A stretch of 64,000 nt of DNA from Actinophytocola sp. (GCF_049647105.1 NZ_JBARWZ010000147.1:10754-74753); one strand, 5' to 3'; counted from the first letter of the stretch, positions 19,934-37,718 are shown. Numbers and translations are program-made. Notes: generated from the sequence alone by a model not told the origin.

Positions 19934-20073
19934 GGATATCAGGACATCATCACGGTATTCCGAGGCGGCGCCGTGCCGATAGTGACGCCGTCATAAATGG
20001 GCAGTGAGTAACCGAGATGCAGCACATGAGTGGTGCACTTGTCCAGTAGTACGTGCGCGACGCACGCTTGGGC

Positions 20074-20102
20074 TCAAGCGAGGCTCAAGCGGCGGTCAAG
20101 TG
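20074..20102 (+). promoter_or_regulatory. Three 11-bp-phased heptamers TCAAGCG / TCAAGCG / TCAAGTG
   Basis: Heptamers at 20074, 20085 and 20096, one mismatch from the SARP-box consensus TCGAGCG. They end 1 nt before the RBS GAGGAGA (20104-20110) of the YcaO gene, so their position is atypical for a SARP-activated promoter. Confidence 0.3.
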
Positions 20103-20114
20103 CGAGGAGAAGTC

Positions 20115-22451: not shown

Positions 22452-22456
22452 ACGTG

Positions 22457-23950: not shown

Positions 23951-24108
23951 CGGAACGCGCCTGGTCAGATGCGGTCCGTGGTGTGCATTCCGGGTTGCGC
24001 CGAACGGCCCCGACCGACCGCTGGGAAGCGGATAATGATTACTGCGTAGCCACCCGCCCGCGTGGTAGAACACATGGCGAATCGGGCAGCTCGGAGGTAC
24101 ATCCGCGA

Positions 24109-24714
24109 ATGATCAAGGTCATGCTGGCCGAGGACATGCACATGGTCCGCGGAGCCCTCGTCGCGCTGCTCAACCTCGAGCCCGACATCGAGGTGGTGGC
24201 CGAGGTCTCCAACGGCACCGACATCCTGGCCACCGCACAGAAGTTCAGACCGGACGTCGCCGTGGTCGACATCGACCTGCCCGGCAAGGACGGACTGACC
24301 GCGGTCGGCGAGGTCCACGAGCACCTGCCGGAGATCCGGACACTGATCCTCACCGGGCTCGGCAGGCCGGGGAACCTGCGCCGCGCGTTGTCGGCGAAAG
24401 TGGCGGGCTTCCTGCTCAAGGACGCGCCACCGGCCCAGCTGGCCGACGCCATCCGCAGTGTGGCGGCGGGACAACGGGTCGTCGACAGCCAGCTCGCGAT
24501 GGCGGCGTGGGACAGCGCGGAATGCCCGCTGACCGCACGGGAGACCGAGGTGCTCCGCCTCACCGCGGAAGGGTTGCAGGCAGTCGACATCGCGTCACGC
24601 CTGTTCCTGTCGGTCGGCACCGTCCGCAACTACCTGACGACGGTCATCGGCAAGCTCGCCGCCCGCAACCGCGTCGACGCGATCCGCATCGCCCGCGAAG
24701 CGGGCTGGCTCTGA
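24109..24714 (+). CDS. NarL/LuxR-family response regulator
   Basis: MIKVMLAEDMHMVRGAL...VVDIDLPGKDGL receiver domain plus a C-terminal LuxR HTH (LTARETEVLRL...VGTVRNYLTTVIGKL). GGAGG lies upstream of ATG 24109. The in-frame upstream extension has poor GC3. Confidence 0.9.
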   Translation: MIKVMLAEDMHMVRGALVALLNLEPDIEVVAEVSNGTDILATAQKFRPDVAVVDIDLPGKDGLTAVGEVHEHLPEIRTLILTGLGRPGNLRRALSAKVAGFLLKDAPPAQLADAIRSVAAGQRVVDSQLAMAAWDSAECPLTARETEVLRLTAEGLQAVDIASRLFLSVGTVRNYLTTVIGKLAARNRVDAIRIAREAGWL

Positions 24715-24737
24715 GCGTTCCCCGGGTGGCAAGCCAA

Positions 24738-24780
24738 GAAGGCGCTTCCGGGACACAGTCCGTGTCCTGAAAGCGCCTTC
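24738..24780. terminator. Imperfect 19-nt-arm inverted repeat between the convergent response regulator and kinase genes
   Basis: gaaggcgcttccgggacac-agtcc-gtgtcctgaaagcgccttc, with 2 mismatches. It belongs to the AAAGCGCC-type hairpin family also seen near 15705-15745, 37840-37880 and 50020-50070. Confidence 0.55.
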
Positions 24781-24797
24781 GAGACAACCGGCCCGCG

Positions 24798-25958
24798 TCA
24801 GCGGTCCATGCGCAGCGGGACATCCACCTTGAGCCGGAACATGTTCGGCTCGTGTTCCACCGTCACCGAACCGCCGATCTCCCCTGCCCGCACCGACAGG
24901 TTGTGAAGCCCGCTACGACCACGATCCTCAGGCACCTTCGGATTCGGCTGCACATCGTCGTTGACGATCTCCAACATCGCCCGATCGTGAGACTGAAGAA
25001 TCGTTATCTCACAGTGCTTCGCCTTGCTGTGCCGTAACAGGTTCGTCACGCCTTCCCGCAACACCGTCGCGAGCACCGTGCTCACCCGAACCGGCAGATC
25101 AGTGTGGTCACTGTCCAGCTTCACACTGATGTCAGCCGCCTCCAGCACCGACACCGCCGACCGGCACTCGTCCTCCAGCGACAACTCCCGGTAGCCGGTC
25201 GCCACCGTCCGCGCGTCGGACAACGCCAGCCGGGAGATATCCAGGATCTCCAGTAACTGGTCACTCGCCTCCTGCGGCGACTTCTCCAGCAACCGATGCG
25301 TCAACTCGATCTTCAGGGTTATCGCCGAAAGGCTGTAACCAAGCAGATCATGCAGGTCACGCGCGAACCGCAGCCGCTCACGCAACACCGCCATCCTCGC
25401 GATCTCCGCACGCGTCGACTGCACCTCGACAACCAACGCCGTCAACCTCGACAACCCGTAGACCACCAACCCCGTGGTCACCGTCGAGATCGACGTGTAC
25501 AAGATGTCCACCGGCGTACCAGTGAACATCAACTGCGCAAACCCCATACTTGCGACGATCAGCGAAAACGCCGCCCACGCCGCGACCGGCCGCAGCACCA
25601 ACAGCACGCTCCCGGCCAGGAACCCCGGCATACCCACCCACGCCTGACCGAAGACCAGAATGGGGAGGTAGACCAGACATGCCTGTGCCGCGAGGATCCC
25701 GTAGCCGAGCCGCGACCGCAGCGGCGCGTTCGACCGGCCATACCACAACAGTTGCATCACCAGTAGCGCGACGATACAGCCGAACGACAGCACGATCTCG
25801 CCCACACCGATGGGCAGGAACAGCACGTGCAGGAACCCGATCAGGCTGATGCTGACGAAAACCGCGGTGACCACGCCGACCGCGAGACGCGGGGCGGGGA
25901 ACGAGACGGTTCTGTCTCCTTCGGACGTCAGGTGTCCTGGTGTGGTGGAGGAGTCCAT
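24798..25958 (-). CDS. Membrane sensor histidine kinase, HisKA_3 (DesK/NarX-like)
   Basis: The N-terminal half is multi-spanning hydrophobic. It has the phospho-acceptor box RFARDLHDLLGYSLSAI and an HATPase region (LREGVTNLLRHSKA, GSGLHNL). Visibly lower GC than its neighbours. Confidence 0.9.
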   Translation of the reverse strand: MDSSTTPGHLTSEGDRTVSFPAPRLAVGVVTAVFVSISLIGFLHVLFLPIGVGEIVLSFGCIVALLVMQLLWYGRSNAPLRSRLGYGILAAQACLVYLPILVFGQAWVGMPGFLAGSVLLVLRPVAAWAAFSLIVASMGFAQLMFTGTPVDILYTSISTVTTGLVVYGLSRLTALVVEVQSTRAEIARMAVLRERLRFARDLHDLLGYSLSAITLKIELTHRLLEKSPQEASDQLLEILDISRLALSDARTVATGYRELSLEDECRSAVSVLEAADISVKLDSDHTDLPVRVSTVLATVLREGVTNLLRHSKAKHCEITILQSHDRAMLEIVNDDVQPNPKVPEDRGRSGLHNLSVRAGEIGGSVTVEHEPNMFRLKVDVPLRMDR

Positions 25959-26545
25959 GGTGGGCCCCTGTCCCGCTACCGTAATCGGGGCGCGTCCGAG
26001 GGGCGGACAACAGCTTGTATGCCCTCGTCCGCGATGGGGTGATACTGCGGTGAACGCGAAACGTACACGAGCCTAACTCCTTGCACCCGAAGGAATCCCC
26101 GTCGCACTTGTGCCATGCGACCTGTTCGCCATGCCGTTGCGACACGACGGGCGAGGTTCCCCAAGGATACGACCGGCAGATCGACGACAGCAGCGCATGC
26201 CGGGTCGCGTGCGGTGCGTCGAACCGTCATCCGGCCCACCGCCCACCGTCCCGGCACCGGTACCGATCGTCATGCCGCCCACACCCGATCCTCACCGTTC
26301 TGCCACAGAAACGCGTAGAAATGACATGCCACTGGAGAGAATAGACGATATAGGCGACCGTTGGGTAAATTGATTGCGGCGTCAACCTGGAATCGCTACC
26401 ACATTTGACCAGCTCAAATAAAGCCCGAAGACGCGCGCCGTACGTTCCCACAGGGTTTTGACACTTGTCAAGGAGTTCGGAGACAGTTCCTCCGGGTTGC
26501 TGTCGCCGGGCGCGTTGACAGATGCAAAGGACTACGCCGGACGCC

Positions 26546-27121
26546 CTATCGCCTCGCCGCGGGGGTGCTCCGCAGGCCGAGTCCGAGCGCCTCGACCAGC
26601 TCCCGGCGGGCCCGCGCGACGCGGGACCTGATGGTCCCGACCGGACACCCGCAGACCTGGGCCGCCTCCGCGTACCCCATCCCGAGCACCTGCGTCAGCA
26701 CGAAGGCGTCGCGCCGGTCTCCCGCCAGCGTCCTGACCGCGAGGTTGATCGATACCGTGTCGTCGATCCCCGGCAGGCCGGACATGACGCGCTCGTCGGC
26801 GGCCGCCTGCCAGTCCGCGTCGGCGGCGATCTTCGGCCGGGTCGCGGCGGCGCGGAAGTGGTCGGCGGCCACCCGGCGCGCGATGGAGAGCAGCCAGGTG
26901 CGCGCGTGGCTGCGTGCGGTGAACCGGTGTGCGCTCCCCAGCGCCCGCACGAACGTCTCCTGCGTGAGGTCCTCGGCCTCCGACGCGCCCGCCAGATAGA
27001 CGAGAAACCGCCAGACGTCACGCTGCGTGCTCCGGATAAAAGCGTTCGCCGCGTCGCGGTCACCGCGCCCGGCGGCAAGTGCCAATTCGGTGATCGTCTC
27101 GTCCGCAGCTAAGTCCGCCAT
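26546..27121 (-). CDS. ECF (group IV) sigma-70 factor, SigC-like by recollection
   Basis: ATG 27121; the track start at 27343 is an extension. Region 2 (DLTQETFVRALGS..RF.ARS.ARTWLLSIARR) and region 4 (AQVCGCPVGTIRSRVARARREL) are present. The VWRF..YL and VCGCPVGTIRSRVARAR blocks match what I remember of mycobacterial SigC. This needs BLASTP confirmation. Confidence 0.85.
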   Translation of the reverse strand: MADLAADETITELALAAGRGDRDAANAFIRSTQRDVWRFLVYLAGASEAEDLTQETFVRALGSAHRFTARSHARTWLLSIARRVAADHFRAAATRPKIAADADWQAAADERVMSGLPGIDDTVSINLAVRTLAGDRRDAFVLTQVLGMGYAEAAQVCGCPVGTIRSRVARARRELVEALGLGLRSTPAARR

Positions 27122-27209
27122 GAATAGGACGGTACGCACCGAAATGCCGTGGCAGAACTGGTGAGAGCGCGATTCCAGCGAACCTCGTGCCGATAATTGA
27201 AGACCTGCT

Positions 27210-27238
27210 GGAACCGGGCACCGGATGTGCCCGACTAC
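27210..27238 (+). promoter_or_regulatory. Candidate ECF-type promoter GGAACC-N16-CGACTAC(T) for the anti-sigma gene (leaderless)
   Basis: -35 GGAACC at 27210-27215, a 16-nt spacer, and CGACTAC at 27232-27238. The GTG start is at 27245, only 6 nt after the -10 block. The same motif with the same spacing occurs at 37690-37718 on the minus strand. Confidence 0.6.
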
Positions 27239-27244
27239 TAGTAC

Positions 27245-27916
27245 GTGGACTGCGAAGAATACCGAGAAGCCCTGTCGGCCCGCCTCGACGACGAGGAGGG
27301 GCCCGGCGACACGCGACAGCCGACCGACCGCCACCTCGAGCACTGCACCGACTGCGCCCGCTGGTATGACAACGCGGCGCTGATCACCCGGCGCACCAGG
27401 ACCTCGGCCGCGGTCTCATGGCCGGACGTGTCCGACGCCGTGCTGGCGCAGGTGCCCACCGGAGCCTCCGTGACGGCCACCCGGCTGCGGGTGGCACTGG
27501 GTGTCGTCGGCACCGCACAGGGTACGACAGCCCTGGTCTCCCTCACCGGCGGCGGCGACTACCCGACGGCGGCGTGGCATTTCGCGCTGGCGGTCGCGTT
27601 CTGCGCGGTCGCCGCCCGCCGCACGCAGCCCGCCGGGCTGGTACCGCTGCTCGGCACGTTCGTCGGCGTGCTGTCGTGGGGGTACGTGACCGGCCTCGCG
27701 ACCGGCGCGACGGGGATGCTGTCGTTCCTGCTGTCCGCCGCGGGCCTCGTGCTCGTGGTGCTGCTCGGCCGCATACCGCCGTCACGACGCGGCCCGGTCC
27801 CGCCCGCGGGCGGGACGGCGCGAGTTCGCCGGGCGAGCGGCACAGACGACGAGGACGGTCCGGAAAACCGTACCCACACGGCAATTCGCCGGATCACGCC
27901 CACAAAGGCGGCATGA
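27245..27916 (+). CDS. zf-HC2-type membrane anti-sigma factor
   Basis: N-terminal C..Y...LSARLD.....HLEHCTDC zinc-finger motif, followed by several hydrophobic helices and an Arg/Pro-rich tail. Divergent from the ECF sigma gene. Confidence 0.75.
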   Translation: MDCEEYREALSARLDDEEGPGDTRQPTDRHLEHCTDCARWYDNAALITRRTRTSAAVSWPDVSDAVLAQVPTGASVTATRLRVALGVVGTAQGTTALVSLTGGGDYPTAAWHFALAVAFCAVAARRTQPAGLVPLLGTFVGVLSWGYVTGLATGATGMLSFLLSAAGLVLVVLLGRIPPSRRGPVPPAGGTARVRRASGTDDEDGPENRTHTAIRRITPTKAA

Positions 27917-27926
27917 TCCGGCGAAT
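27884..27926. terminator. 13-bp-stem hairpin (attcgccggatca ... tgatccggcgaat) overlapping the anti-sigma stop codon
   Basis: Perfect 13-nt inverted repeat with a 17-nt loop. A second GC hairpin, gggccgg...ccggccc, follows at 27928-27949. Confidence 0.5.
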
Positions 27927-28069
27927 TGGGCCGGGAGGTCACCCGGCCCGCATTCGTCCGGATGATGATCAGAATTCCCCCGCGATTACCCCTAGGAGGG
28001 CGCGCGAATAGGGTCGGTGGATGCCCGTCGTGATGCGGCGGGCGCCGCCATGCCCTGTTCGCGCGCCCT

Positions 28070-28861
28070 CTAACTTGCCTTGGCGAGCGGCCGCGCGCCA
28101 TAGGTGACCCGGACGACCCCGTCATCGTGACGCTCCGTCGCCGCGGTCACCCCGAACACCTCCGACAGCACCGACGGTGACAAGGCGTCGAGCACCGGGC
28201 CGCACGCCACGACCCGGCCGTGATCCAGCACGACGAGCCGGTCACAGCTGCGGACGGCGAGGTCGAGATCGTGCAGCACGGCCAGCGTGGTGACCCCGAC
28301 CGAGTGCACCAGCTCCAGCAGCTCGAACCGGGCCCGGATGTCCAGGTGGTTGGTCGGCTCGTCGAGCACGAGCAGCTTCGGCTCCTGCGCGAGCGCGCGG
28401 GCGAGCAGCACCCGTTGGCGTTCGCCACCGGACAGCGACCCGTAGATCCGTTCCGCGTGGTCGGTCATCCCGGTCCGCGCGAGCGCGGAGTCCACGATCC
28501 CCCGGTCGGCACCACCCGTCCGGCCGAACATGCCGTGGTGCGGGGTGCGGCCCAGCTCGGCCACCTCCCGCACGGTCAGTCCTGGCGGGGTCGGGCTGTT
28601 CTGCAGCACCGCCGCGGTGTACCGGGCGGCCGTCCGCGCCGACATGTTCCACACATCCGTCATCGTGTCGCCGTCGCCGAGCATGACCGACCCGGTGGCC
28701 GGCCGCATCGAGCGGTAGATCGTCCGCAGCAGCGTCGACTTGCCGCTGCCGTTCGGCCCGATCAGCCCGACGAACTCCCCTGGGAGCACCTCGAGGTCGA
28801 CGTCGTGCAGGATCGGCGTGCCGCCGATGTGCACGCTCACCTGCTGCACCTGGAGTTTCAT
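28070..28861 (-). CDS. ABC transporter ATP-binding protein (FepC/FecE iron-siderophore type)
   Basis: Walker A GPNGSGKST, signature LSGGERQR and Walker B LLVLDEPTNHLD. ATGA overlap with the permease stop. Confidence 0.9.
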   Translation of the reverse strand: MKLQVQQVSVHIGGTPILHDVDLEVLPGEFVGLIGPNGSGKSTLLRTIYRSMRPATGSVMLGDGDTMTDVWNMSARTAARYTAAVLQNSPTPPGLTVREVAELGRTPHHGMFGRTGGADRGIVDSALARTGMTDHAERIYGSLSGGERQRVLLARALAQEPKLLVLDEPTNHLDIRARFELLELVHSVGVTTLAVLHDLDLAVRSCDRLVVLDHGRVVACGPVLDALSPSVLSEVFGVTAATERHDDGVVRVTYGARPLAKAS

Positions 28862-29958
28862 GTGTGTGCGAGGCTCCGATCCCGGCGCATGAGCCAGATG
28901 AAGAACGGCGCGCCGAAGAGTGCGGTCAGGATGTTCAGCGGTAGTTCGTTCGGCGGGTCGACGGTCCGCGACAGCAGGTCGACGACCACCAGGTAGATCG
29001 CCCCGACCAGAGCGGCCAATGGCAGCAGCCTGCGGTGGTCGACGCCGAAGGTGAGCCGGACCAGGTGGGGCACCATCAGGCCGACGAAGCCGATGCCGCC
29101 CGCGACGGCGATCAGCACGCCCGCGATCAGTGAGCTGAGCAGGATCAGGAGCAGCCGCAGCCGTTTGACGTCGATGCCCAGCGCGGTCGCCGACTCGTCG
29201 CCGGTGACCAGCGCGTTGAGCTGGCGGCCGTACAGCGTGAGCAGCAGCGTCGATGCGATGACCACGACCCCCGCCACGTGCAGATGCTCCCAGTGCGCAC
29301 CGGAGACGCTGCCCAGCAGCCAGAACATGATCTGGCGCATGTTGTTCGGCTCGGTCTGCAACTGCAGGAAGTTCGTGGCCGAGGTGAACACGTAGCTCAC
29401 CACGACCCCGGCGAGCACCAGCCGCACCGGGTTGAGCTTGCCGCCCTGCTGGCCGAGCATGAACACCAGGCCGACGGCGAGCATGGCGCCGAGGAACGCG
29501 GCCCCGGACACACCGAGACCGCCGAGCGCACCAGCGCCGAGCGACATGACCGTCACGGCGCCGACCGACCCGCCCGCCGACACCCCGAGGATGAAGGGGT
29601 CGGCGAGCGGGTTGTTCACGAGCGCCTGCAGCACCACCCCGGTCACCGCGAGCCCCGCGCCCGCGAGGGCGGCGAGCAGCACCCTCGGGATCCTGAACTC
29701 CCAGATGATCTGGTCGTGGGCCGGGTTGACCTCACCGCCGAAGATGTGCGCGCTCACGATCCGCCAGCTGTCGCCGAGCGAGAACGTGACCGAGCCGATC
29801 GCGGCGGCCGCCAGGATCACGACGACCAGGAGCGCGCCGAGGACGACAAGCGACACCGGCAGCGGCACCGCGTGCAGTGGCGCGGGCCGCGCCCCCGACC
29901 GGCTCGCCTTGGCGAGCGATCGGGAGGCGGTGCGCCTGGTGATCGGGGTGGCGGTCAT
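28858..29958 (-). CDS. FecCD-family ABC permease (siderophore/metallophore import)
   Basis: ATG 29958 shares one base with the upstream stop (TGATG). The protein is polytopic, with a typical FecCD C-terminus (NILTALFGAPFFIWLM). Confidence 0.9.
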   Translation of the reverse strand: MTATPITRRTASRSLAKASRSGARPAPLHAVPLPVSLVVLGALLVVVILAAAAIGSVTFSLGDSWRIVSAHIFGGEVNPAHDQIIWEFRIPRVLLAALAGAGLAVTGVVLQALVNNPLADPFILGVSAGGSVGAVTVMSLGAGALGGLGVSGAAFLGAMLAVGLVFMLGQQGGKLNPVRLVLAGVVVSYVFTSATNFLQLQTEPNNMRQIMFWLLGSVSGAHWEHLHVAGVVVIASTLLLTLYGRQLNALVTGDESATALGIDVKRLRLLLILLSSLIAGVLIAVAGGIGFVGLMVPHLVRLTFGVDHRRLLPLAALVGAIYLVVVDLLSRTVDPPNELPLNILTALFGAPFFIWLMRRDRSLAHT

Positions 29959-30989
29959 CAGAACGCTTCCGGGTGGAACGCCTTCGCGATCTCCTCGACG
30001 GCAATGGCGTTGCTGGGACCGAGGTAGATCGAGTCGGACAGGACGACGTAGCGCTTGTTCTTCGCGGCGTCCCACTGCGGGAACTGGCCGAACAGCGCCT
30101 TGGCGTCGGCGTCGGAGTCGGGCGACTGGAAGTTCACCACGATCAGCGCGTCGATGTCGGCCTTCGCGACCTGCTCCTTGCTGGGGTTGGCGAACATGTT
30201 CTCCGACGCGCCCGCGAACGCGTTGGTGACGCCCGCCTTCGCCATGATGTCGTTCCAGATGCCGTTGTCGCCGACGGAGCTGAACGGGTCACCCATCGCC
30301 ATGCCAGGGATGATCATCATCGCCTTCAGCTCGGGCTGGCCCTCGACCTTCTTCTCCACGGCCGCGATCCGGTCCTTCGAGTCGGCGACGATCTCCTCCG
30401 CCTTCTCCGAGACGCCGAAGATCTTGCCGAGGTCGCGCAGCATGTTGTAGCTGTCCTCGATGGTCGGCTTGTGGCTGACGGTGCCGACGTCACCACACGC
30501 GCTCTCCGGCGCGTAGGTGTTCGCGTTGATCTTCGCGAGGTCGTCGCGGGTGGCGAACCCGGCCTCGGCGCGGAACCCGCCGTCGTAGGTGGAGATCACG
30601 AAGTCCGGCGTGAGGCCGATCATCGCCTCACGCGGGATGTCCATCATCTCGTTCAGCTCGATGTCACCGGTCGGCAGCTTCTTGATCTCGTCGACGCGGC
30701 CGGGCACCTCCGAGTCGCCATAGGACTGCGCGTTGGCGACGATCTTGTCACCGAGCCCCAGCTCCAGCAGCGCGGACACCTCGGCGACCGAACCGCCGTT
30801 CATGACCACGACCCGGCTCGGCGCCTTGTCGTAGGTGTACTCCTTGCCGCAGTTGGTGATCGTCACCGGGTACGCGCTGTCCGTGGCCTGGTCCCCGGAC
30901 TCCTCGGCGGTGGTGGTCGTGGCGCACGCCGCCGTCGTGGCGAGACACAGTGCGCCGACTGCCACCAGGACAGTCCGCTTGATGCTCAT
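29958..30989 (-). CDS. ABC substrate-binding lipoprotein (FecB/TroA-like metallophore binding)
   Basis: Signal peptide with a lipobox-like LATTAAC. It has the periplasmic-binding-protein fold pattern of siderophore binders (VVVMNGGSVAE, PDFVISTY, LIVVNF). ATGA overlap with the MFS stop. Confidence 0.85.
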   Translation of the reverse strand: MSIKRTVLVAVGALCLATTAACATTTTAEESGDQATDSAYPVTITNCGKEYTYDKAPSRVVVMNGGSVAEVSALLELGLGDKIVANAQSYGDSEVPGRVDEIKKLPTGDIELNEMMDIPREAMIGLTPDFVISTYDGGFRAEAGFATRDDLAKINANTYAPESACGDVGTVSHKPTIEDSYNMLRDLGKIFGVSEKAEEIVADSKDRIAAVEKKVEGQPELKAMMIIPGMAMGDPFSSVGDNGIWNDIMAKAGVTNAFAGASENMFANPSKEQVAKADIDALIVVNFQSPDSDADAKALFGQFPQWDAAKNKRYVVLSDSIYLGPSNAIAVEEIAKAFHPEAF

Positions 30990-32476
30990 CGTGAGCTCCT
31001 CTGGGTGGTCGGGGCGGCAACCGGTGCCGGCGCCGCCGTGGATGGGTCTTCCGTTGGAGGTGTCTCTGCCGGGGTCGCGGGCAGCCGGTGCAGCCGCGCG
31101 TTCAGGAGGCTGGTTACGGTGGCGAGCACCGCGAGCAGCACCGCGGCGGCCGCGAACGCCGCCGCGCTGTCGTCGAACGGCACGCCGGGGTCGCCCGGGG
31201 TGGCGCCGAGCACGGTCCGGTACCAGGCCCCCGCCACGGCCACGCCGAGCGCGAGGCCGAGCTGGGTGACGGTCGTTGCCATGCCGGACGCGGCGCCAGC
31301 GTCAGCGGGCTCGACCCGGCTGAGGATCCCGGCGACGAGCGGGGTGACGACCATGCCCTGTCCTAGGCCCGCGAGTCCGATCATCACCGCGAGCAGCGCG
31401 GGCTGCGCGGACTGGGGCGCCTGCGTGATCGCCGCGCCCGCGAGCAGCACGGCGGCGACGGTGGCGCAGCCGAGGATCGGGATGGGTGCGCGCACCCGGC
31501 TGGTCAACCACCGGTTGGCCGCCGACGCGAGCGAGAACCCGACACCGAGCGGCACGAACATCAGCCCGGCGACGAACGGTTCCAGCCCGAGCCCGGTCTG
31601 CAGGTAGTAGGTGAACACCAGGAACAGCCCGGAGTTCGTGGCGAACAACGCGGCGACGGTCAGCAGGCTCAGCCGCATGCCCCGTGCGCGGAACACCCTC
31701 GGCGGGAACAGCGGGGCGCCGCCCCTGGCGAGCAGTCCGCGCTGCTGGATCGCGAGCACCGCGAACACCGCGACCGCGAGCGGCAGCCCGAGCCACAGCC
31801 ACGACGGGCCGCCAGGCCCGAAGATCAGCGGCACCAGCAGCGCGGGCAGCGCGACCGTGGTCAGCGCGGCACCCGCGAGGTCGAGGCGGCTCTCCCGGTT
31901 CGCGACGCCGGACGGCAGCAGCCTGCCCAGCGCGAGGATCGCGAGCCCGATCGGCACGTTCACGAGCAGCACCGGCCGCCAGCCGAGCCCGGCGATGTCC
32001 AGGTCGACGAGGATGCCGCCGCCCGCGATGCCACTGATCACGCCGAGCCCGATCACGACGCCGTACACGCTGACGGCCTTCGCGCGCTGCTCGGTGTCGG
32101 TCACGGTCGCCCGGATGATCGACAGGACCTGCGGCGCCATGAACGCGGCCGCGGCGCCCTGGGCGAACCTGGCCGCGATGAGCAGCTCCGCGTTCGGCGC
32201 GAGCCCGCACAGCAGCGAGGTCAGCGTGAACCCGGCGACGCCCAACAGGAACACGGTCCGGTGCCCGGCGCGGTCGCCGAGCCGCGCGCCGGTGATCAGC
32301 AGCGCGCCGAACGCGACCACGTAGGCGGCGCCGACGAACTGGATCTGGTCGAACCCGGCGTCGAGGTCGAGCTGGATCGACGGGCTCGCCACGTTCACGA
32401 TGAACCCGTCGACCTGGGTCATGAAGGTGGCGGCCAGGACGGTACCGAGGCCGAGCCATTCGCGGCGGCCGATCAT
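30986..32476 (-). CDS. MFS transporter, 14-TMS DHA2 (EmrB/QacA) type, probable exporter
   Basis: ATG 32476 follows GGAAAGGAAGG and overlaps the NRPS stop (ATGA). GARLGDRAGHRTVFL is the MFS motif A. Confidence 0.9.
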   Translation of the reverse strand: MIGRREWLGLGTVLAATFMTQVDGFIVNVASPSIQLDLDAGFDQIQFVGAAYVVAFGALLITGARLGDRAGHRTVFLLGVAGFTLTSLLCGLAPNAELLIAARFAQGAAAAFMAPQVLSIIRATVTDTEQRAKAVSVYGVVIGLGVISGIAGGGILVDLDIAGLGWRPVLLVNVPIGLAILALGRLLPSGVANRESRLDLAGAALTTVALPALLVPLIFGPGGPSWLWLGLPLAVAVFAVLAIQQRGLLARGGAPLFPPRVFRARGMRLSLLTVAALFATNSGLFLVFTYYLQTGLGLEPFVAGLMFVPLGVGFSLASAANRWLTSRVRAPIPILGCATVAAVLLAGAAITQAPQSAQPALLAVMIGLAGLGQGMVVTPLVAGILSRVEPADAGAASGMATTVTQLGLALGVAVAGAWYRTVLGATPGDPGVPFDDSAAAFAAAAVLLAVLATVTSLLNARLHRLPATPAETPPTEDPSTAAPAPVAAPTTQRSSR

Positions 32477-35400
32477 GACGCCTTCCTTTCCACACCGTGC
32501 GCACCGGCCAGCACCGCGCCGACCACCTCGAGCGCGTCCGCCTCGGTCATCCCGTGGTGCGTCGCGGCGACGTGGTACACGTCCATTCGTCCGTCCACAT
32601 GCGACTCCCAGGTCTCGGGGCCCGGCCACTCCGGGGGTTTGTCCCGCGTCGCCGCGAACAGGTGCACGTCGCAGGCGACGCGGCGGGGCGTCCACGAGGC
32701 ACCGATCCGGGCGCTGTGCGTGTATGCGCGGTACAGCCGGTCGAAGGCGCCGATCCCGTCGGCGTCGGGCACCATGGCGGCGAACTCGTCCTCGGTCGGC
32801 GGCGGCCGGTCCCGCATCGCGGCCGGGAACGGGAACGAGTCGAGCAACGCGAGCAGCGCGACCTCGTGGCCCTGTTCCTCAAGCTGTGCCGCGACCTCGT
32901 GTGCGACGAGCCCGCCGAACGACGCGCCGAGCAGGTGGTACGGACCGCTGGGCCGCACGGTCCTGATGTGGCGCACGAGTTCCTCGGCCACCTCCGCGAC
33001 ACCGGCGTGCCGGTCGGCACCGACGAGCTGCAACCCGTACAGCGGCCGGTCCGGCAGGCGGGCGAGCAGCCCGGCGTAGGACCACGCGAGCCCGGTGGCC
33101 GGGCTGACGCAGAACAGCGGCGGCCTGCTCCCGTTGGTGCGCAGAGGAAGCAACGTGTCGAACGCGCCTTCGTCGACGTGCGCGGTCAGCCGGGGGGCGA
33201 GCGTGGCGACCGTGGGCGCCTCGAACACCGCGCGGATGCCGAGGCGCACGCCGAACTCGGCACGGATCCGCCCGATGAGCCTGCCGACCAGCAGCGAGTG
33301 CCCGCCGAGGGAGAAGAAGTCGTCGTCGATCCCGATCGTCTCGATGCCGAGCAGCTCGGCGAACATCCCGCACAGCACGGCCTCGCGCCGGTCACGGGGT
33401 GGCCGCCCGGTGGTCAGCGCGGCCGGGTCGGGCGCGGGCAGCGCGGCGCGGTCGAGCTTGCCGTTGGTGTTGCGCGGCAACCGGTCCACCACGACGTACG
33501 CGGGCGGCACCAGGTAGTCCGGCATCCGCTGCGCGGCGTACTGCCGCAGGGTGGCCGGTTCCGGCGCGCTCTCACCGGGCACGACGTAGGCGACGAGCCT
33601 GCCGTCGCGGACGACGACCGCGCACTGCGCGACCGAATCGTGGCCGGACAGCACTTGCTCGACCTCGCCGGGTTCGATGCGGAAACCACGTACCTTGACC
33701 TGGTCGTCGGCCCGGCCGAGGAACTCCAGCGTGCCGTCCGGCCGCCACCGCGCGAGGTCGCCGGTGCGGTACATCCGCTCCCCCGGCAGGCCGAAGGGGT
33801 CCTCGACGAACCGTTCCGCCGTGATGCCGGGCCGCTCGTGGTAGCCGCGGGCGACCGGCGCGCCGGCGAAGTACAGCTCGCCGACCACGCCGGGTGGCAC
33901 CAGGTGCTGCGCCTCGTCCAGCACGTAGGCCCTGGTGTTGGCGATCGGGCGGCCCACGACCGGATCGGGGCTGTCGGCGACCCGGCAGTGCAGCGTGTCC
34001 ACCGTGCACTCGGTTGGGCCGTACAGGTTGTAGGTGGCGATGTCGGGCACCGCGCGCAGTGCCGTCCACAGCGCAGGGCCCGCCGCCTCGCCGCCGAGCG
34101 CGACCACCGAGGGGCGGTGCCTGCCCTCCGCCAGCAGCCCGGCCGTGACGAGTTCCTCGGCGTAGGTCGGGGTGATGTCGAGGAAGTCGATACGCCACTC
34201 GTCGATGTAGTCGAGCATCGCGGCGGGTTCGCGGCGCACGTCCTCGCCGACGAAGTGCAGCTCGTGGCCGTCGAGGAGCCACAGCAGGCCTTCCCACGAC
34301 GTGTCGAACGACAGCGAAGCGGACAGCGCGGCCCGGATGGTCCTGCCCTCGCTGTTCGGCCGGATCAGCGTGTCGCGGTGATGGTGGAACAGGTTGACGA
34401 GCCCACTGTGCTCGATCACGACACCCTTGGGGACCCCGGTAGAGCCGGACGTGTGGATCAGGCAGGCCGGGTTGCCGGGAATGAGCGGTGCGTGCCGTTC
34501 GCCGTCGGTGACGTTCCGGTCCGACAGCCCGTCGAGCCGGGTGGCGGTGGCCGGATCGTCGAGCACGACCACGCGCACCACGCCATCGGCGGCGGCCTCG
34601 GCGGCCTCCCGGAGCGCTTCGGTGGTGAGCAGTACCTCTGGCGCGCTGTCGGCGACGGTGAGCGCGATGCGCCGCGCCGGGTGGTCGGGGTCGATCGGCA
34701 CGTATCCCGCACCCGCCTTGAGCACCGCGAACAACGCGACGATCGCGTCCGCCGTGCGGGGCAGCAGAAGTCCCGCGTAGCACTCCGGCGCGGCGCCCTC
34801 CTCGACGAGCAGCCTGGCAAGCCGGTTCGCCCGCCGGTTCAGCTCGTCGAAGGTGAACGTGTCGTCGTCGGCGACCAGCGCGGTCCGGTCCGGCGTCGCC
34901 GCGGCCCGCTCCTCGAGCAGGTCGGGCACCGTCACCGGCGGCACGTAGCGCGTGGTGTCGTTCCACTCGGTCAGCAGGGTGCGCAGCTCGCCGTCCAGCA
35001 GCAGGTCGACGTCGATGACCGGGCCCGATGACGCGGCGGTGACGCGACGAAGGAAGGTCAGGAACCGGCGCAGGTGGGTGGCGACCTCGTCGGCGGTGTA
35101 GCAGTTCGGGTTGGCGTCCACGACGATCCGCAGCCCGCTGCCGTCCGCGCGGTCGTACACGTGCAGCACCAGGTCCTCCACCAGGCCCGCGCTGACGTTG
35201 TGCACCACACCGCGGTGCCCGGAGAAACGCAGGTCGTAGTCGAACGGCATGATGTTGACCGACGGGCCGAACAGTTTCCGTTCGCTGGCAACGAGTTTGA
35301 GGTCTCGGCGTAACTGCTCGTACCGGTAGCGCAGGTGCGGCCGCCCGGCTCGCAGCTCCCCGGTGACCTGCCTCGTGAGGTCGACGAGGCTCGCGCCGGG

Positions 35401-36312
35401 AGCCACCCGCAGCCACAGGGGGACCACGTTGGTCACCATGCACGGCACCCGCAGCGACACCGACCCGATGCGGGCCATCACCGGCACCGCGAACACCAGG
35501 TCGGTCGCGCCGGTCATCCGGTGCAGGTAGGCGGCGAACGTGGCGGTGAGCACCTCGCTCCACGTGGCGTCCGCGCCGGACGCGGTGTGCTTCAGCGCCG
35601 CGAGGTCCGCGTCGTCGAGATCGGCGCTCTCCCGCACGACGGTGTGTGCCAGCTTGCCGGACCGGGGCGCGAGCACCACCGGCACGGGTTTGCCCTCCGC
35701 CTTGCCCACCCAGAAGTCACGGTCCTCGGCGAAGCGCGGCGAGTCCAGGTACGCCAGGTCCTCGGCCACCACGTCGGCCAGCTCGCCGAAGCCGCTCGGT
35801 CCCGGCTCGGTGCCCGCCGCGAGCGCGGTGTAGACCTCCGCGACCCGCCGTGCGACGAGCGCAAGGCCGTAGCCGTCGAGTGCGATGTGGTGGACTCGCT
35901 GGTACCACAGGAAAAGTTCCGGTCCCGCCCGGAACAGGGTCTGCGCGAACACCGGGCCACGGCGCAGGTCCACCGGCACCGCGAGGTCCGCACGCATCCA
36001 CGCCAGCGCCGCGGCGACGGGATCGGTCTCCCCGGCCACGTCGACCACCGCCATCGTCCATTCCGGACAGCGGCCGGTCTCCTGCCATGCCTTACCGTCG
36101 GCGTCGGTGCCGAAACACAGCGACAGCGCGTCGGTCTCGCCGACGGCCGTGCGCACGGCCCGTTCGAACAGCGGAACGTCCACCGGGCCGCGGATCTCCA
36201 CGTACTCGGCGGTGTTGAAGGCGGGACTGTCCGGATCGAACTCCTGGCCGGTCCAGATGCCCTCCTGTGCGGTGGTCAGCGCGAGCCGCCGCACATCCTG
36301 GCGCTCACGCAT
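32473..36312 (-). CDS. Single-module NRPS, C-A-T-TE
   Basis: ATG 36312 overlaps the carrier-protein stop by 8 nt. C domain VHHIALDGYG. A domain [30 protein letters not shown] and NGKLDR. T domain FFSLGGHSLLVGRL. The C-terminal thioesterase has LLGASFGGLVAHE and a distal HHG. Confidence 0.93.
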   Translation of the reverse strand: MRERQDVRRLALTTAQEGIWTGQEFDPDSPAFNTAEYVEIRGPVDVPLFERAVRTAVGETDALSLCFGTDADGKAWQETGRCPEWTMAVVDVAGETDPVAAALAWMRADLAVPVDLRRGPVFAQTLFRAGPELFLWYQRVHHIALDGYGLALVARRVAEVYTALAAGTEPGPSGFGELADVVAEDLAYLDSPRFAEDRDFWVGKAEGKPVPVVLAPRSGKLAHTVVRESADLDDADLAALKHTASGADATWSEVLTATFAAYLHRMTGATDLVFAVPVMARIGSVSLRVPCMVTNVVPLWLRVAPGASLVDLTRQVTGELRAGRPHLRYRYEQLRRDLKLVASERKLFGPSVNIMPFDYDLRFSGHRGVVHNVSAGLVEDLVLHVYDRADGSGLRIVVDANPNCYTADEVATHLRRFLTFLRRVTAASSGPVIDVDLLLDGELRTLLTEWNDTTRYVPPVTVPDLLEERAAATPDRTALVADDDTFTFDELNRRANRLARLLVEEGAAPECYAGLLLPRTADAIVALFAVLKAGAGYVPIDPDHPARRIALTVADSAPEVLLTTEALREAAEAAADGVVRVVVLDDPATATRLDGLSDRNVTDGERHAPLIPGNPACLIHTSGSTGVPKGVVIEHSGLVNLFHHHRDTLIRPNSEGRTIRAALSASLSFDTSWEGLLWLLDGHELHFVGEDVRREPAAMLDYIDEWRIDFLDITPTYAEELVTAGLLAEGRHRPSVVALGGEAAGPALWTALRAVPDIATYNLYGPTECTVDTLHCRVADSPDPVVGRPIANTRAYVLDEAQHLVPPGVVGELYFAGAPVARGYHERPGITAERFVEDPFGLPGERMYRTGDLARWRPDGTLEFLGRADDQVKVRGFRIEPGEVEQVLSGHDSVAQCAVVVRDGRLVAYVVPGESAPEPATLRQYAAQRMPDYLVPPAYVVVDRLPRNTNGKLDRAALPAPDPAALTTGRPPRDRREAVLCGMFAELLGIETIGIDDDFFSLGGHSLLVGRLIGRIRAEFGVRLGIRAVFEAPTVATLAPRLTAHVDEGAFDTLLPLRTNGSRPPLFCVSPATGLAWSYAGLLARLPDRPLYGLQLVGADRHAGVAEVAEELVRHIRTVRPSGPYHLLGASFGGLVAHEVAAQLEEQGHEVALLALLDSFPFPAAMRDRPPPTEDEFAAMVPDADGIGAFDRLYRAYTHSARIGASWTPRRVACDVHLFAATRDKPPEWPGPETWESHVDGRMDVYHVAATHHGMTEADALEVVGAVLAGAHGVERKAS

Positions 36313-36556
36313 CCAGGGCCGCCGGCTGCCGCGATGCCAAGAGGGTCGACCAGTGCTCCAGCGTCGGCTTCTCGGCCAGTTCCACGAAACTGACCGACAC
36401 CCCGGCTTCACGCCACCGCTCGAGAAGCGTCAGCAAGCGGACCGAGTCCATCCCACACTCGAAGAGGTTGTCCTGCTCGAAGGCCTCGTCCGGATTCCGG
36501 TGCAGCAATTCCGCGACATGTGCGCGAATCACCTCCGGCGTCAACCGCTCTGCCAT
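36305..36556 (-). CDS. Free-standing acyl carrier protein (Rv0100/ScoB-like)
   Basis: 83 aa. The phosphopantetheine site is CGMDSVRLLTLL. The RBS GAGGGTGAGG precedes ATG 36556. Confidence 0.8.
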   Translation of the reverse strand: MAERLTPEVIRAHVAELLHRNPDEAFEQDNLFECGMDSVRLLTLLERWREAGVSVSFVELAEKPTLEHWSTLLASRQPAALDA

Positions 36557-36709: not shown

Positions 36710-37582
36710 TCAGGCGGCCGCGTCGTTGTCGTACACGGTCACCCGGTAGGAAACAGCGGGCTCCGGCGTGGCGGTGTGCAGAGCACGGTGGACGAGGGTG
36801 CGGTTGTCCCACACCAGCATGTCGCCCTTCTCGAAGGTCTGCAGGTGAATGTTCTCGTGCTCGTAGGTCCGGTCCAGCTGCCCGGAGGAGGCCAGCAGCT
36901 CCTTCAGCAGGTCCGCACGGTCGTTGCCCTTGGCGTCCTGGACGGAGAGGGTGAAGCCCTCGCTGACGTACAGGATGGTCTCGTCCGTGAACGGGTGCTT
37001 GACCGCGGTCGCGTCCGTCACCGGCGGCGTCTTGGCGTTGACCTCCTCGATGATCTCCGAGATCGGCCGGTAGACGTCGGTCGGGCGGATCTTGAAGTAC
37101 CGCAGCACGCTGTGCGTCGCCGTGGTGTCCTTCACGATCTCCTTCAGCTCCGCCGACAGCTGCTCGTAGGCCGCTGCCATGTTGATGAAGTACGTGCCGC
37201 GGTTCTTCGTCGGCACCACCTGCGGGTAGATCAGCGTGAGGTCGAACGGACGGGGCATGAACTGGTAGTCGGAGTGCCAGAACTTGCCGGTCTTCGGCAC
37301 GCCGACCTGGCGGCCGTCCTCCTCCTTCACGTTGGAGGAGACGAAGACCTCCTTGACCTCCGGGTGGTGGTAGACCGGCTCGTAGTACTCGGCAACCTCG
37401 CCCATGCTCTTGCCCAGCGCCAGGAACTGCTCCGGGTCCAGGTCCTGGTTCTTCAGCACGGCGATCTTGTTGGTGTAGACGGCTTTCTTCAGCTCAGCGA
37501 TGTCCTCGGCCGAGGCCGTCGCCGCGTTGAAGCCCTCGACGACGACGCCGAACTTCTTGCCGACCTGCGGGGTAATTTTCAT
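36710..37582 (-). CDS. TauD/TfdA-family Fe(II)/2-oxoglutarate dioxygenase, Rv0097/ScoE-like isonitrile synthase
   Basis: ATG 37582 lies 7 nt after AAGAGGA, giving 290 aa; the track start at 37663 is an extension. [66 protein letters not shown] and [15 protein letters not shown] line up block for block with my recollection of Rv0097. Confidence 0.88.
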
Positions 37583-37689
37583 GAGTAGTCCTCTTGGATA
37601 TGACAGTGGAGAGCAGTGACGTCCAGTACGCGGACCACATGAGAAGCGAACGCCGTTGTCCATGATTTCTTCATAGCGGTCTCGTGTAA

Positions 37690-37718
37690 GTAGTCGTACC
37701 GGAAGATCCAGTGGTTCC
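37690..37718 (-). promoter_or_regulatory. Candidate ECF-type promoter GGAACC-N16-CGACTAC(T) for the isonitrile/NRPS/transport operon
   Basis: The minus strand reads gggGGAACCactggatcttccggtaCGACTACTtacacgag. The -35 is at 37718-37713 and the -10 at 37696-37690. It lies about 100 nt upstream of ATG 37582. The -35, spacing and 8-nt -10 block are identical to 27210-27239. Confidence 0.6.

What the first reader, a model, noticed from the sequence alone, without database searches (positions are those of the whole stretch)
27210..27247. Identical ECF-type promoter (GGAACC-N16-CGACTACT) upstream of the anti-sigma gene and of the isonitrile/NRPS/transport operon (second copy 37690-37718, minus strand)
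Seen: the plus strand reads ctgGGAACCgggcaccggatgtgccCGACTACTagtacGTG at 27210-27247. The minus strand reads gggGGAACCactggatcttccggtaCGACTACTtacacgag at 37718-37690, about 100 nt upstream of the ScoE-like ATG. The -35 hexamer, the 16-nt spacer length and the 8-nt -10 block are identical.
Other CGACTAC hits in the window lie inside FDYP codons of the PKS ACPs or other coding sequence and lack the -35. GGAAC-N16/17-CG-type architecture is the hallmark of ECF sigma promoters, and an ECF sigma with a zf-HC2 anti-sigma is encoded right there.
At the anti-sigma gene the -10 ends 6 nt before the GTG, implying a leaderless mRNA.
Established parallel: in M. tuberculosis the ECF sigma SigC drives the nrp isonitrile-chalkophore operon and a Cu-ATPase during copper starvation.
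Inference: this sigma directly controls the isonitrile synthase, NRPS, exporter and importer.
Basis: partly seen in the sequence, partly recalled or inferred. Interest (0 to 1): 0.7.

Follow-up and report, generated by a model that had tools for sequence, protein, structure and literature searches.

The report
SigC-type promoters of a chalkophore cluster
Two identical promoter sequences sit in front of a copper-chelator (isonitrile lipopeptide) synthesis and transport operon and in front of a membrane anti-sigma gene; they are almost certainly read by the SigC-like sigma factor encoded next door, so this is a real non-mycobacterial copy of the circuit Mycobacterium tuberculosis uses against copper starvation.

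Summary
GGAACC-N16-CGACTACT occurs exactly twice in 64 kb, at 27210-27239 (+) and 37689-37718 (-), and nowhere else even with 2 mismatches.

One correction: the ECF sigma gene is on the minus strand (26546-27121) and is transcribed divergently from the zf-HC2 gene. The plus-strand ORF at 26522-27112 is not a gene.

- The sigma is SigC-like: 55% identical to the M. marinum sigma at the nrp locus, and its best PDB match is Mtb SigC.
- The zf-HC2 protein is a homolog of Rv0093c, the putative anti-SigC.
- A weight matrix trained only on zf-HC2 upstream regions of other genomes finds just these two sites in the window.
- In 80 related loci it gives 97 hits against 4 expected. Nearly all lie upstream of scoE, the importer operon, the zf-HC2 gene, or once a Cu-ATPase.
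- It also picks out the M. tuberculosis ppe1-nrp upstream region, which the literature reports as SigC-bound.
- In 25 of 25 genomes the -10 block ends 5-6 nt before a GTG start, so the mRNA is leaderless or nearly so.
- None of 35 sigma genes carries the motif.

Verdict: a real, conserved SigC-type regulon, and a new member of a known kind. No transcript data were available.

The parts
27210..27239 (+). SigC-type promoter of the zf-HC2 (anti-sigma) gene: -35 GGAACC 27210-27215, 16-nt spacer, -10 block CGACTACT 27232-27239. Predicted transcription start 27242-27245.
   Evidence: 30.3 bits. The position relative to the start codon is conserved in 25 of 25 orthologous loci.
27245..27916 (+). Membrane zinc-finger (ZAS-type) anti-sigma candidate of 223 aa, a homolog of Rv0093c/'RscA'. 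It has Cys3 plus H30xxxC34xxC37, four predicted transmembrane helices and a C-terminal ...KAA. It has a GTG start and no Shine-Dalgarno sequence, so the mRNA is leaderless or nearly so.
   Evidence: Pfam zf-HC2 23.1 bits against a cut-off of 22.2. BLASTP against Mtb-complex Rv0093c E=3e-16. Family profile against the RsiW anti-sigma domain of PDB 5WUQ E=3.5e-7. AlphaFold model.
26546..27121 (-). SigC-like ECF sigma factor of 191 aa (ATG 27121), divergent from the zf-HC2 gene. No SigC-type motif lies upstream on its own strand.
   Evidence: Pfam r2+r4. PDB 2o7g Mtb SigC E=1.8e-30. NCBIfam SigC is the top hit at 196 bits, below the 219 cut-off. 55% identity to the M. marinum sigma at the nrp locus. 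Motif absent upstream.
37689..37718 (-). SigC-type promoter of the scoE operon: -35 GGAACC 37718-37713, 16-nt spacer, -10 block CGACTACT 37696-37689. Predicted transcription start about 37686-37683.
   Evidence: 20.3 bits with a matrix trained on a different gene class in other genomes. Orthologous sites are found upstream of scoE in 39 other loci.
37583..37686 (-). 5' UTR of about 100 nt for the scoE operon. It holds an invariant 12-nt block TCTCATGTGGTC (37644-37633) and the Shine-Dalgarno sequence AGAGGA. The 31-codon ORF 37674-37579 is not conserved as an ORF.
   Evidence: no significant fold; no Rfam hit; alignment of 7 Actinophytocola loci.
36710..37582 (-). ScoE-type Fe(II)/2-oxoglutarate isonitrile-forming oxygenase/decarboxylase, 290 aa. 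First gene of the operon.
   Evidence: NCBIfam NF049937 461 bits against a cut-off of 400. Pfam TauD.
36305..36556 (-). Acyl/peptidyl carrier protein (ScoB-like).
   Evidence: Pfam PP-binding.
32473..36411 (-). NRPS with domains C-A-T-TE. The ORF limits are given; the true start is probably near 36312, overlapping the carrier-protein stop.
   Evidence: Pfam. Junction sequence.
30986..32695 (-). MFS transporter, the presumed exporter. The ORF limits are given; the likely ATG is near 32476, in an ATGA overlap with the NRPS stop.
   Evidence: Pfam MFS_1. Junction.
28070..30989 (-). ABC importer genes: substrate-binding protein 29958-30989, FecCD permease 28858 to about 29960, ATPase 28070-28861. 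Stop and start codons overlap.
   Evidence: Pfam Peripla_BP_2, FecCD, ABC_tran. Junctions. In 8 other loci this operon has its own SigC-type motif.

Best explanation
The two identical 30-bp elements are promoters for the SigC-like (ECF36-type) sigma factor encoded at 26546-27121 (minus strand). The -35 is GGAAC(C/T), the spacer is 16 nt, and the -10 is CGACTA(CT).

One copy drives a leaderless or near-leaderless mRNA for a four-helix membrane zinc-finger protein, a homolog of M. tuberculosis Rv0093c. That protein most likely holds the sigma inactive.

The other copy drives a tightly coupled 9.6-kb operon: scoE, carrier protein, NRPS, MFS exporter and ABC importer. This operon makes part of an isonitrile lipopeptide copper chelator (chalkophore) and moves it across the membrane.

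Proposed sequence of events: the anti-sigma releases the sigma, by analogy with M. tuberculosis on copper shortage. The operon then switches on, and so does the anti-sigma gene. That is a negative feedback loop which resets the system. The sigma gene itself has no such promoter and is expressed independently.

What is shown:
- The motif, its rarity, and its conservation at fixed positions across about 10 actinobacterial genera.
- The identity of the neighbouring proteins.
- The match to the M. tuberculosis ppe1-nrp upstream site.

What is inferred:
- That this sigma binds these sites.
- The transcription start points.
- Anti-sigma function.
- Copper as the signal.
For: - The motif is unique to these two sites in the window.
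- A start-codon-anchored, regex-free alignment of zf-HC2 upstream regions from 25 loci shows conserved GGAAC and CGAC blocks at fixed distance from a GTG start.
- A matrix trained on those sites gives 97 hits of at least 14 bits in 80 loci, against 4 expected.
- Counting the window's own two sites as well, these hits fall upstream of scoE (40), the zf-HC2 gene (25), a KASIII-like first gene of the operon (10), the importer binding-protein gene (8) and a Cu P-type ATPase (1).
- The same matrix ranks first and second in a 20-kb Mtb-complex locus: the ppe1 upstream site GGAACT-N16-CGACTAAC (21.5 bits) and the Rv0093c upstream site (13 bits). M. marinum and a M. decipiens-like locus behave the same way.
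- Literature: SigC induction raises ppe1-nrp and ctpB; ChIP hotspots and near-identical predicted SigC -35/-10 elements lie upstream of both; ctpB is transcribed in vitro with SigC (PMC7924339).
- The reported ppe1 transcription start is 59 nt before the ATG (PMC8131098), which is 3 nt after the 8-mer in L081.
- The sigma is SigC-like.
- The zf-HC2 homolog co-occurs with the sigma in 24 of 24 loci, and in 21 of them the two are adjacent and divergent.
- The zf-HC2 family matches the RsiW anti-sigma domain and Rv0093c.
- None of 35 sigma genes has the motif upstream. This matches the report that Mtb sigC is not autoregulatory (cited).
Against: - No transcript, ChIP or binding data exist for this organism. 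Sigma-promoter pairing rests on co-localisation and on analogy with M. tuberculosis.
- The sigma scores below the NCBIfam SigC equivalog cut-off (196 against 219 bits).
- GGAAC at -35 is common to many ECF groups, so specificity rests on CGACTA.
- About 30 of 80 scoE loci have no strong hit.
- The window's Cu-ATPase and the ScoC/ScoD genes lack the motif.
- Rv0093c was not listed among genes induced by sigC overexpression in PMC7924339 (one search finds no mention of it).
- The Mtb Rv0093c site has a weaker -35, GGAGC.
Confidence: 0.8

Rival explanations
1. The elements are genuine ECF-type promoters but are read by a different ECF sigma encoded elsewhere in the genome, for example a SigM-like or other GGAAC-recognising factor. 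On this view the adjacent SigC-like sigma has other targets.
For: GGAAC -35 boxes are shared by many ECF groups (general knowledge). In M. tuberculosis, sigM overexpression also raised rv0098-rv0100 (PMC7924339). Only 42 of 80 scoE loci have the SigC-like sigma within 10 kb.
Against: The motif tracks the sigma/zf-HC2 pair: it precedes the zf-HC2 gene next to the sigma in every locus that has one. The orthologous M. tuberculosis sites are reported as SigC ChIP hotspots, and ctpB is transcribed by SigC holoenzyme in vitro. The CGACTA -10 block is specific and rare.
Confidence: 0.1
2. The conserved 30-bp element is mainly an operator for a DNA-binding regulator such as a copper-responsive repressor, not a promoter. 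Transcription would start from another, unrecognised promoter.
For: Some spacers contain inverted repeats. ACTAC-N5-GTAGT is invariant in about 25 Nocardia scoE sites, and GGCAC-N5-GTGCC occurs in the window at 27217-27231. No sigma-70-type promoter was found nearby, so something else could be missing too.
Against: Only the two outer blocks (GGAAC and CGACTA) are conserved across genera, while spacer sequences vary. That is the pattern of a two-box promoter. The fixed 5-6 nt distance from the -10 block to a start codon without a Shine-Dalgarno sequence only makes sense for a promoter of a leaderless mRNA. The reported Mtb ppe1 transcription start falls 3 nt after the block. An extra repressor overlapping the promoter remains possible and is compatible with the main explanation.
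Confidence: 0.05
3. The two copies match by chance, or are a remnant of a local duplication, and have no function.
For: Only two copies exist in the window. 2 of 100 shuffles reached two matches when 2 mismatches were allowed.
Against: Both matches are exact, and about 3e-4 exact matches are expected (inference from composition). The flanks and spacers are unrelated, so this is not a duplication. Both sites are conserved at orthologous positions in many genera, with 97 hits against 4 expected.
Confidence: 0.01

Closest known systems
M. tuberculosis SigC regulon (ppe1-nrp operon Rv0096-Rv0101 and ctpB), the copper-starvation response
   Same: - A SigC-like ECF sigma (PDB 2o7g E=1.8e-30; 55% identity to the M. 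marinum sigma at the nrp locus).
- The same promoter architecture: Mtb ppe1 has GGAACT-N16-CGACTAAC and the window has GGAACC-N16-CGACTACT.
- The target is an isonitrile lipopeptide (ScoE/Rv0097-type) cluster.
- The sigma gene is not preceded by its own motif.
   Different: - Here sigma and anti-sigma candidate sit inside the cluster as a divergent pair. In M. tuberculosis sigC (Rv2069) is monocistronic and far from nrp (PMC7924339).
- There is no PPE gene or PPE1-5' RNA.
- The operon adds an MFS exporter and an ABC importer.
- The NRPS ends in a thioesterase domain. The Nocardia and mycobacterial homologs end in a reductase-type domain.
- ScoC and ScoD are outside the operon.
- The adjacent Cu-ATPase has no motif.
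Rv0093c, the putative anti-SigC 'RscA'
   Same: 33% identity over 209 aa (E=3e-16), with the same N-terminus (M/V)DCExxREALSARLDxE...HLxxCxxCxxW and four transmembrane helices. A SigC-type motif ends 5-6 nt before the start codon in the window, M. marinum and M. tuberculosis.
   Different: Anti-sigma activity of Rv0093c is only a prediction in the literature (PMC6917791, PMC7563442). PMC7924339 states that no anti-SigC has been identified. The window's clade lacks the His-rich 'HLFNESTAW' loop between TM1 and TM2 that the mycobacterial, Nocardia and Lentzea members have.
B. subtilis SigW-RsiW, a zinc-finger membrane anti-sigma removed by regulated proteolysis
   Same: The family profile matches the RsiW cytoplasmic anti-sigma domain solved in complex with SigW (PDB 5WUQ, E=3.5e-7). 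The HxxxCxxC motif is present and the protein is membrane anchored.
   Different: RsiW has one transmembrane helix and is co-transcribed downstream of sigW under an autoregulated promoter. Here there are four helices, a divergent gene, a leaderless mRNA, and a sigma that is not autoregulated. Proteolytic control is untested.
Streptomyces ScoA-E / SF2768-type isonitrile lipopeptide clusters
   Same: ScoE passes the NCBIfam equivalog cut-off (461 against 400 bits). A carrier protein and an NRPS follow it. Homologs of ScoC (56% identity) and ScoD (48%) exist in the window.
   Different: ScoC and ScoD are in a separate unit at 16497-18704, beside a BTAD regulator and a large PKS. I found no published regulation of these clusters by an ECF sigma outside mycobacteria in the searched library.

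Membership tests
SigC / ECF36 sigma factors | ECF architecture: regions 2 and 4 only | tested here: met
   Pfam Sigma70_r2 (E=4e-15) and Sigma70_r4_2 (E=6e-14), nothing else; 191 aa.
SigC / ECF36 sigma factors | Closer to M. tuberculosis SigC than to any other characterised sigma | tested here: met
   PDB: SigC region 2 E=1.8e-30 and region 4 E=5.9e-17; the next full-length sigma scores about 1e-17. NCBIfam ranks SigC first. 55% identity to the M. marinum sigma at the nrp locus.
SigC / ECF36 sigma factors | Passes the curated SigC equivalog threshold (NF007231) | tested here: not met
   196 bits against a cut-off of 219. It is therefore 'SigC-like', not a curated equivalog.
SigC / ECF36 sigma factors | Formal assignment to ECF36 and to a subgroup in the ECF classification | not testable with these tools
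   The ECF Hub models are not available, and the supplements of PMC7826278 are not held.
SigC-dependent promoter | Same two-box architecture as the reported SigC sites of M. tuberculosis | tested here: met
   L081 ppe1 upstream site GGAACT-N16-CGACTAAC scores 21.5 bits with the matrix trained on non-mycobacterial zf-HC2 sites. The original figure (Rodrigue 2007, PMC1855719) could not be read.
SigC-dependent promoter | Transcription start a few nt downstream of the -10 block | not testable with these tools
   No RNA data are available. Indirect evidence: the start codon is fixed 5-6 nt after the block in 25 of 25 loci, and the Mtb ppe1 start is reported 59 nt before the ATG, 3 nt after the block.
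SigC-dependent promoter | Transcription depends on the sigma | not testable with these tools
   This needs genetics or in vitro transcription.
Zinc-finger (ZAS, zf-HC2) anti-sigma factors | HxxxCxxC plus an upstream Cys/His ligand, in an N-terminal helical anti-sigma domain | tested here: met
   C3, H30, C34 and C37 are invariant in 14 and in 20 family members. Pfam zf-HC2 scores 23.1 against 22.2. The model shows three N-terminal helices. The profile matches the RsiW anti-sigma domain at E=3.5e-7.
Zinc-finger (ZAS, zf-HC2) anti-sigma factors | Genetic linkage to a cognate ECF sigma | tested here: met
   24 of 24 homologs in scoE loci lie with the SigC-like sigma, and 21 are adjacent and divergent.
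Zinc-finger (ZAS, zf-HC2) anti-sigma factors | Binds and inhibits the sigma | not testable with these tools
   No complex prediction or assay was possible. The whole-protein fold search gave no significant hit. No sigma fusion appeared among the top 150 family representatives; the fusion in the M. avium complex is known to me only from the literature.
Isonitrile lipopeptide (ScoA-E / Rv0097-0101) cluster | ScoE-type isonitrile-forming oxygenase | tested here: met
   NF049937 461 bits against a cut-off of 400.
Isonitrile lipopeptide (ScoA-E / Rv0097-0101) cluster | ScoC (acyl-ACP ligase) and ScoD (glycine adduct-forming enzyme) in the same operon | tested here: not met
   Homologs are at 16497-18047 and 18216-18704 on the minus strand, 19 kb away and without the motif. 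The pathway is probably complete but is split over two units.

The most novel reading that the evidence does not exclude
The Rv0093c-family four-helix zinc-finger membrane protein is the missing anti-SigC and the input device of the copper-starvation response across Actinobacteria, M. tuberculosis included.

Its gene would be a conserved, leaderless member of the SigC regulon, giving negative feedback. Its conserved cytoplasmic C-terminal Ala-Ala would make it a protease substrate, and the His-rich outer loop found in most members would sense copper or the chalkophore.

This could also explain why the membrane protease Rip1 is needed for ppe1-nrp induction in M. tuberculosis.
Probability: 0.35. 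Interest if true: 0.7.

Novelty: new member of a known kind. Interest (0 to 1): 0.45.

Why it matters
- It gives a compact, cross-validated promoter motif, GGAAC(C/T)-N16-CGACTA. The motif predicts the regulon of SigC-like sigma factors in Pseudonocardiaceae, Micromonosporaceae, Nocardia and Mycobacterium: chalkophore synthesis, export, import, and sometimes a Cu-ATPase.
- It shows that the M. tuberculosis SigC-nrp wiring is ancestral rather than a pathogen speciality.
- It gives comparative support for Rv0093c homologs as the partner of SigC. Both how SigC is controlled and how copper shortage is sensed are stated as open questions for M. tuberculosis (PMC7924339).
- Practically, expressing the sigma or deleting the zf-HC2 gene should switch on such silent clusters.

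Tried and rejected
- Plus-strand ORF 26522-27112 as the sigma gene: no Pfam hit, and the sigma domains are on the opposite strand. Rejected.
- The 31-codon upstream ORF 37674-37579, whose stop overlaps the scoE ATG. Its start codon is lost and non-3n indels occur in related loci, and it has no Shine-Dalgarno sequence. Rejected as a conserved coding leader.
- Structured 5' UTR or riboswitch: fold z-score +0.77 and no Rfam family in 24000-43500.
- Motif upstream of the window's Cu-ATPase, ScoC/ScoD, PKS or sigma: none above 8.1 bits.
- Sigma-70-type promoters near either site: none.
- Reading the original SigC promoter figure (Rodrigue 2007): paper not held. ECF36 supplementary tables: not held.
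- Whole-protein fold search of the zf-HC2 model against the PDB: nothing below E=1.
- Looking for sigma/anti-sigma fusion proteins among the top 150 family representatives: the long hits contain only zf-HC2.
- The full-length M. tuberculosis Rv0098 was not returned by the protein search, so a frameshift-rich Mtb-complex assembly (L081) had to be used. Rv0093c was rebuilt from two reading frames.

Full report
**Observation.** The plus strand reads GGAACC (27210-27215), a 16-nt spacer, CGACTACT (27232-27239), 'agtac', then GTG (27245). The minus strand reads GGAACC (37718-37713), a 16-nt spacer, CGACTACT (37696-37689). A search allowing 2 mismatches finds only these two sites, against 0.22 expected. 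The 8-mer CGACTACT occurs nowhere else in the window. The spacers and flanks are unrelated, so this is not a duplication.

**Gene map and a correction.** Third-position GC content and Pfam show that the ECF sigma is the minus-strand ORF 26546-27121, with regions 2 and 4 and an ATG at 27121. The plus-strand ORF 26522-27112 has no domain. The sigma and the zf-HC2 gene (27245-27916, +) are therefore divergent, and the motif lies in their 123-bp intergenic region, pointing at the zf-HC2 gene.

The second copy lies 106 nt upstream of a minus-strand operon:
- ScoE (36710-37582; NCBIfam ScoE 461 bits against a cut-off of 400)
- carrier protein
- NRPS with domains C-A-T-TE
- MFS transporter
- binding protein, FecCD permease and ABC ATPase, down to 28070

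Stop and start codons overlap at the junctions.

Other context:
- Upstream of the scoE promoter, on the same strand, lie a YtkA-like protein, a Cu P-type ATPase (39076-41706) and an alpha/beta hydrolase. A terminator-like hairpin follows them.
- ScoC and ScoD homologs are 19 kb away (16497-18704, minus strand), beside a BTAD regulator and a 4283-aa PKS.

**What the proteins are.** The sigma's best solved relative is M. tuberculosis SigC: region 2 E=1.8e-30 and region 4 E=5.9e-17. NCBIfam ranks SigC first, but below its equivalog cut-off at 196 against 219 bits. The sigma is 55% identical to the sigma encoded at the M. marinum nrp locus.

The zf-HC2 protein has these features:
- Cys3 and H30xxxC34xxC37
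- three N-terminal helices, four transmembrane helices and a disordered tail
- 33% identity over 209 aa to Mtb-complex Rv0093c (E=3e-16)
- a family profile that matches the RsiW anti-sigma domain solved with SigW (E=3.5e-7)

The literature calls Rv0093c a putative anti-SigC, 'rscA' (PMC6917791). It reports that sigC is fused with Rv0093c in the M. avium complex (PMC7563442). PMC7924339 states that no anti-SigC has been identified and that sigC is monocistronic.

**Comparative test of the motif.** A scan of species-representative genomes with ScoE returned 80 loci. They come from Actinophytocola (81-93% identity, so probably the window's genus), Micromonospora, Saccharothrix, Actinosynnema, Kutzneria, Lentzea, Actinomadura, Nocardia, Streptomyces and Rhodococcus.

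I aligned the 60 nt upstream of every zf-HC2 homolog, anchored only on the start codon. This shows conserved GGAAC and CGAC blocks, and a GTG start 5-6 nt after the 8-mer in 25 of 25 cases, with no Shine-Dalgarno sequence.

I then trained a weight matrix on 20 of these sites, excluding the window.
- In the window it finds only 27210 (30.3 bits) and 37718 (20.3 bits); the next best site scores 8.1 bits.
- In the 80 loci it gives 97 hits of at least 14 bits against 4 expected under a first-order Markov null.

Sorted by the gene downstream, and counting the window's own two sites, the hits precede:
- scoE (40)
- the zf-HC2 gene (25)
- a KASIII-like gene that heads the operon in another cluster layout (10)
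- the importer binding-protein gene (8)
- a Cu P-type ATPase (1)
- a PepSY-type membrane protein (1)
- a few singletons

None of 35 sigma genes has a hit upstream on its own strand. The zf-HC2 homolog is found with the sigma in 24 of 24 loci, and in 21 of them the two are adjacent and divergent.

**Link to experiment.** I recovered an Mtb-complex nrp locus (L081) by way of the Rv0098 sequence shown in a PDB alignment. Its two best matrix hits are:
- GGAACT-N16-CGACTAAC, 61 nt before the PPE1 ATG (21.5 bits)
- GGAGCA-N16-CGACTATT-gatggc-ATG in front of Rv0093c (13 bits)

M. marinum and a M. decipiens-like locus show the same two sites, scoring 20.1 and 18.6 bits in the first and 22.8 and 15.6 bits in the second.

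PMC7924339 reports four relevant findings:
- sigC induction raises ctpB and ppe1-nrp
- ChIP hotspots lie upstream of both
- almost identical predicted SigC -35/-10 elements lie upstream of both
- ctpB is transcribed in vitro with SigC

PMC8131098 places the reported ppe1 transcription start 59 nt before the ATG. In L081 that is 3 nt after the 8-mer.

By analogy, the window's starts should be at about 27242-27245 and about 37683-37686. The zf-HC2 mRNA would then have a leader of 0-3 nt. An in-frame TAG at 27239-27241, and the need to retain Cys3, leave no other start codon.

**Mechanism.** The SigC-like sigma reads both promoters. The membrane zinc-finger protein most likely sequesters it. Release switches on chalkophore tailoring, assembly, export and re-import, and also switches on the anti-sigma gene as negative feedback. 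The sigma gene is expressed independently.

Copper limitation as the trigger is inferred from M. tuberculosis (PMC7924339, PMC9600254). How the signal is sensed is unknown.

**Rivals.**
- Another ECF sigma reads the sites. This is possible because GGAAC is generic, but the motif tracks the sigma/zf-HC2 pair and matches reported SigC sites.
- The element is an operator for a repressor. This is unlikely to be its primary role, because only the two boxes are conserved and the -10 block has a fixed distance to a start codon lacking a Shine-Dalgarno sequence. An additional repressor is possible, given the Nocardia spacer palindrome.
- Chance. This is excluded by conservation.

**Novelty.** The circuit is known in M. 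tuberculosis. Three things appear to go beyond what I found in the searched literature:
- the motif definition across many genera
- the embedding of the sigma and an Rv0093c-like gene inside chalkophore clusters
- the conserved SigC-type, leaderless promoter of the Rv0093c family, including in M. tuberculosis

I rate it a new member of a known kind, of moderate interest.

Noticed in passing
window 27245-27916; L083 5591-6304; zf-HC2 genes in L035-L078: Nearly all family members end in Ala-Ala (window ...PTKAA, M. marinum ...DGSAA, Nocardia ...DPAA). With four transmembrane helices this tail is cytoplasmic, so it may be a ClpXP-type degradation tag.
   Followed up: partly
window 27245-27916 (residues ~100-110); zf-HC2 genes in L035-L078; L083: Most distant family members (Lentzea, Nocardia, Mycobacterium) have a His-rich loop ending in 'HLFNESTAW' between TM1 and TM2. 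The window's Actinophytocola clade has this loop shortened to 'GGGD-YPTAAW'.
   Followed up: partly
L047-L067, L073 at 9951-9980 (+): In about 25 Nocardia scoE promoters the spacer holds an invariant inverted repeat, ACTAC-N5-GTAGT, that overlaps the -35 box, while the 5-nt centre varies. This suggests an extra dimeric regulator bound over the promoter. The window has GGCAC-N5-GTGCC at 27217-27231.
   Followed up: no
window 36651-36688 (-); L002 10895-10932; L003 10917-10932: The 153-nt gap between scoE and the carrier-protein gene holds two tandem copies of GGAATTCCAGTYCACT, 22 nt apart, each with the palindrome GGAATTCC. 0.00 matches are expected by chance, and the repeat is conserved in two related Actinophytocola loci. 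Function unknown.
   Followed up: partly
window 37633-37644 (-): A 12-nt block, TCTCATGTGGTC, in the scoE 5' UTR is invariant in 7 Actinophytocola loci although the surrounding UTR diverges and has indels. The UTR shows no significant fold and no Rfam match.
   Followed up: partly
window 16497-18704 (-), 18797-19990 (-), 2833-15681 (+): The ScoC and ScoD homologs (56% and 48% identity to the Nocardia proteins) lie apart from scoE. They sit behind a BTAD/SARP-type regulator gene and beside a 4283-aa PKS, and have no SigC-type motif. Part of the isonitrile pathway may therefore answer to a different regulator.
   Followed up: partly
window 38182-42949 (-): A YtkA-like protein, a Cu P-type ATPase with two HMA domains and an alpha/beta hydrolase lie directly upstream of the scoE promoter on the same strand. 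They have no SigC-type motif, and a terminator-like hairpin at 38150-38129 follows them. In L037 a Cu-ATPase does carry the motif.
   Followed up: partly
window 20004-23950 (+), 24798-25958 (-): A YcaO cyclodehydratase and a ThcOx/nitroreductase-type oxidase (azole-forming RiPP-like enzymes), plus a HisKA_3 histidine kinase, lie between the PKS region and the sigma gene.
   Followed up: no
L005-L007, L010, L075 at about 19540-20220 (+): In Micromonospora the SigC-like sigma gene follows the importer ATPase gene on the same strand, and no zf-HC2 gene is nearby. There the sigma may be co-transcribed with its own target operon, which would be positive feedback.
   Followed up: partly
L083 2600-8941: In M. 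marinum the order is sigC (-), Cu P-type ATPase (+), zf-HC2/Rv0093c homolog (-), methyltransferase, PPE, then the nrp cluster. Sigma, anti-sigma candidate and chalkophore genes are therefore linked there, unlike in M. tuberculosis.
   Followed up: partly
L084 18921-19856 (-): The public gene call for the zf-HC2 gene (311 aa) in this M. decipiens-like contig is probably too long. The SigC-type motif at 19666 (-) points to a GTG start about 225 nt further downstream.
   Followed up: no
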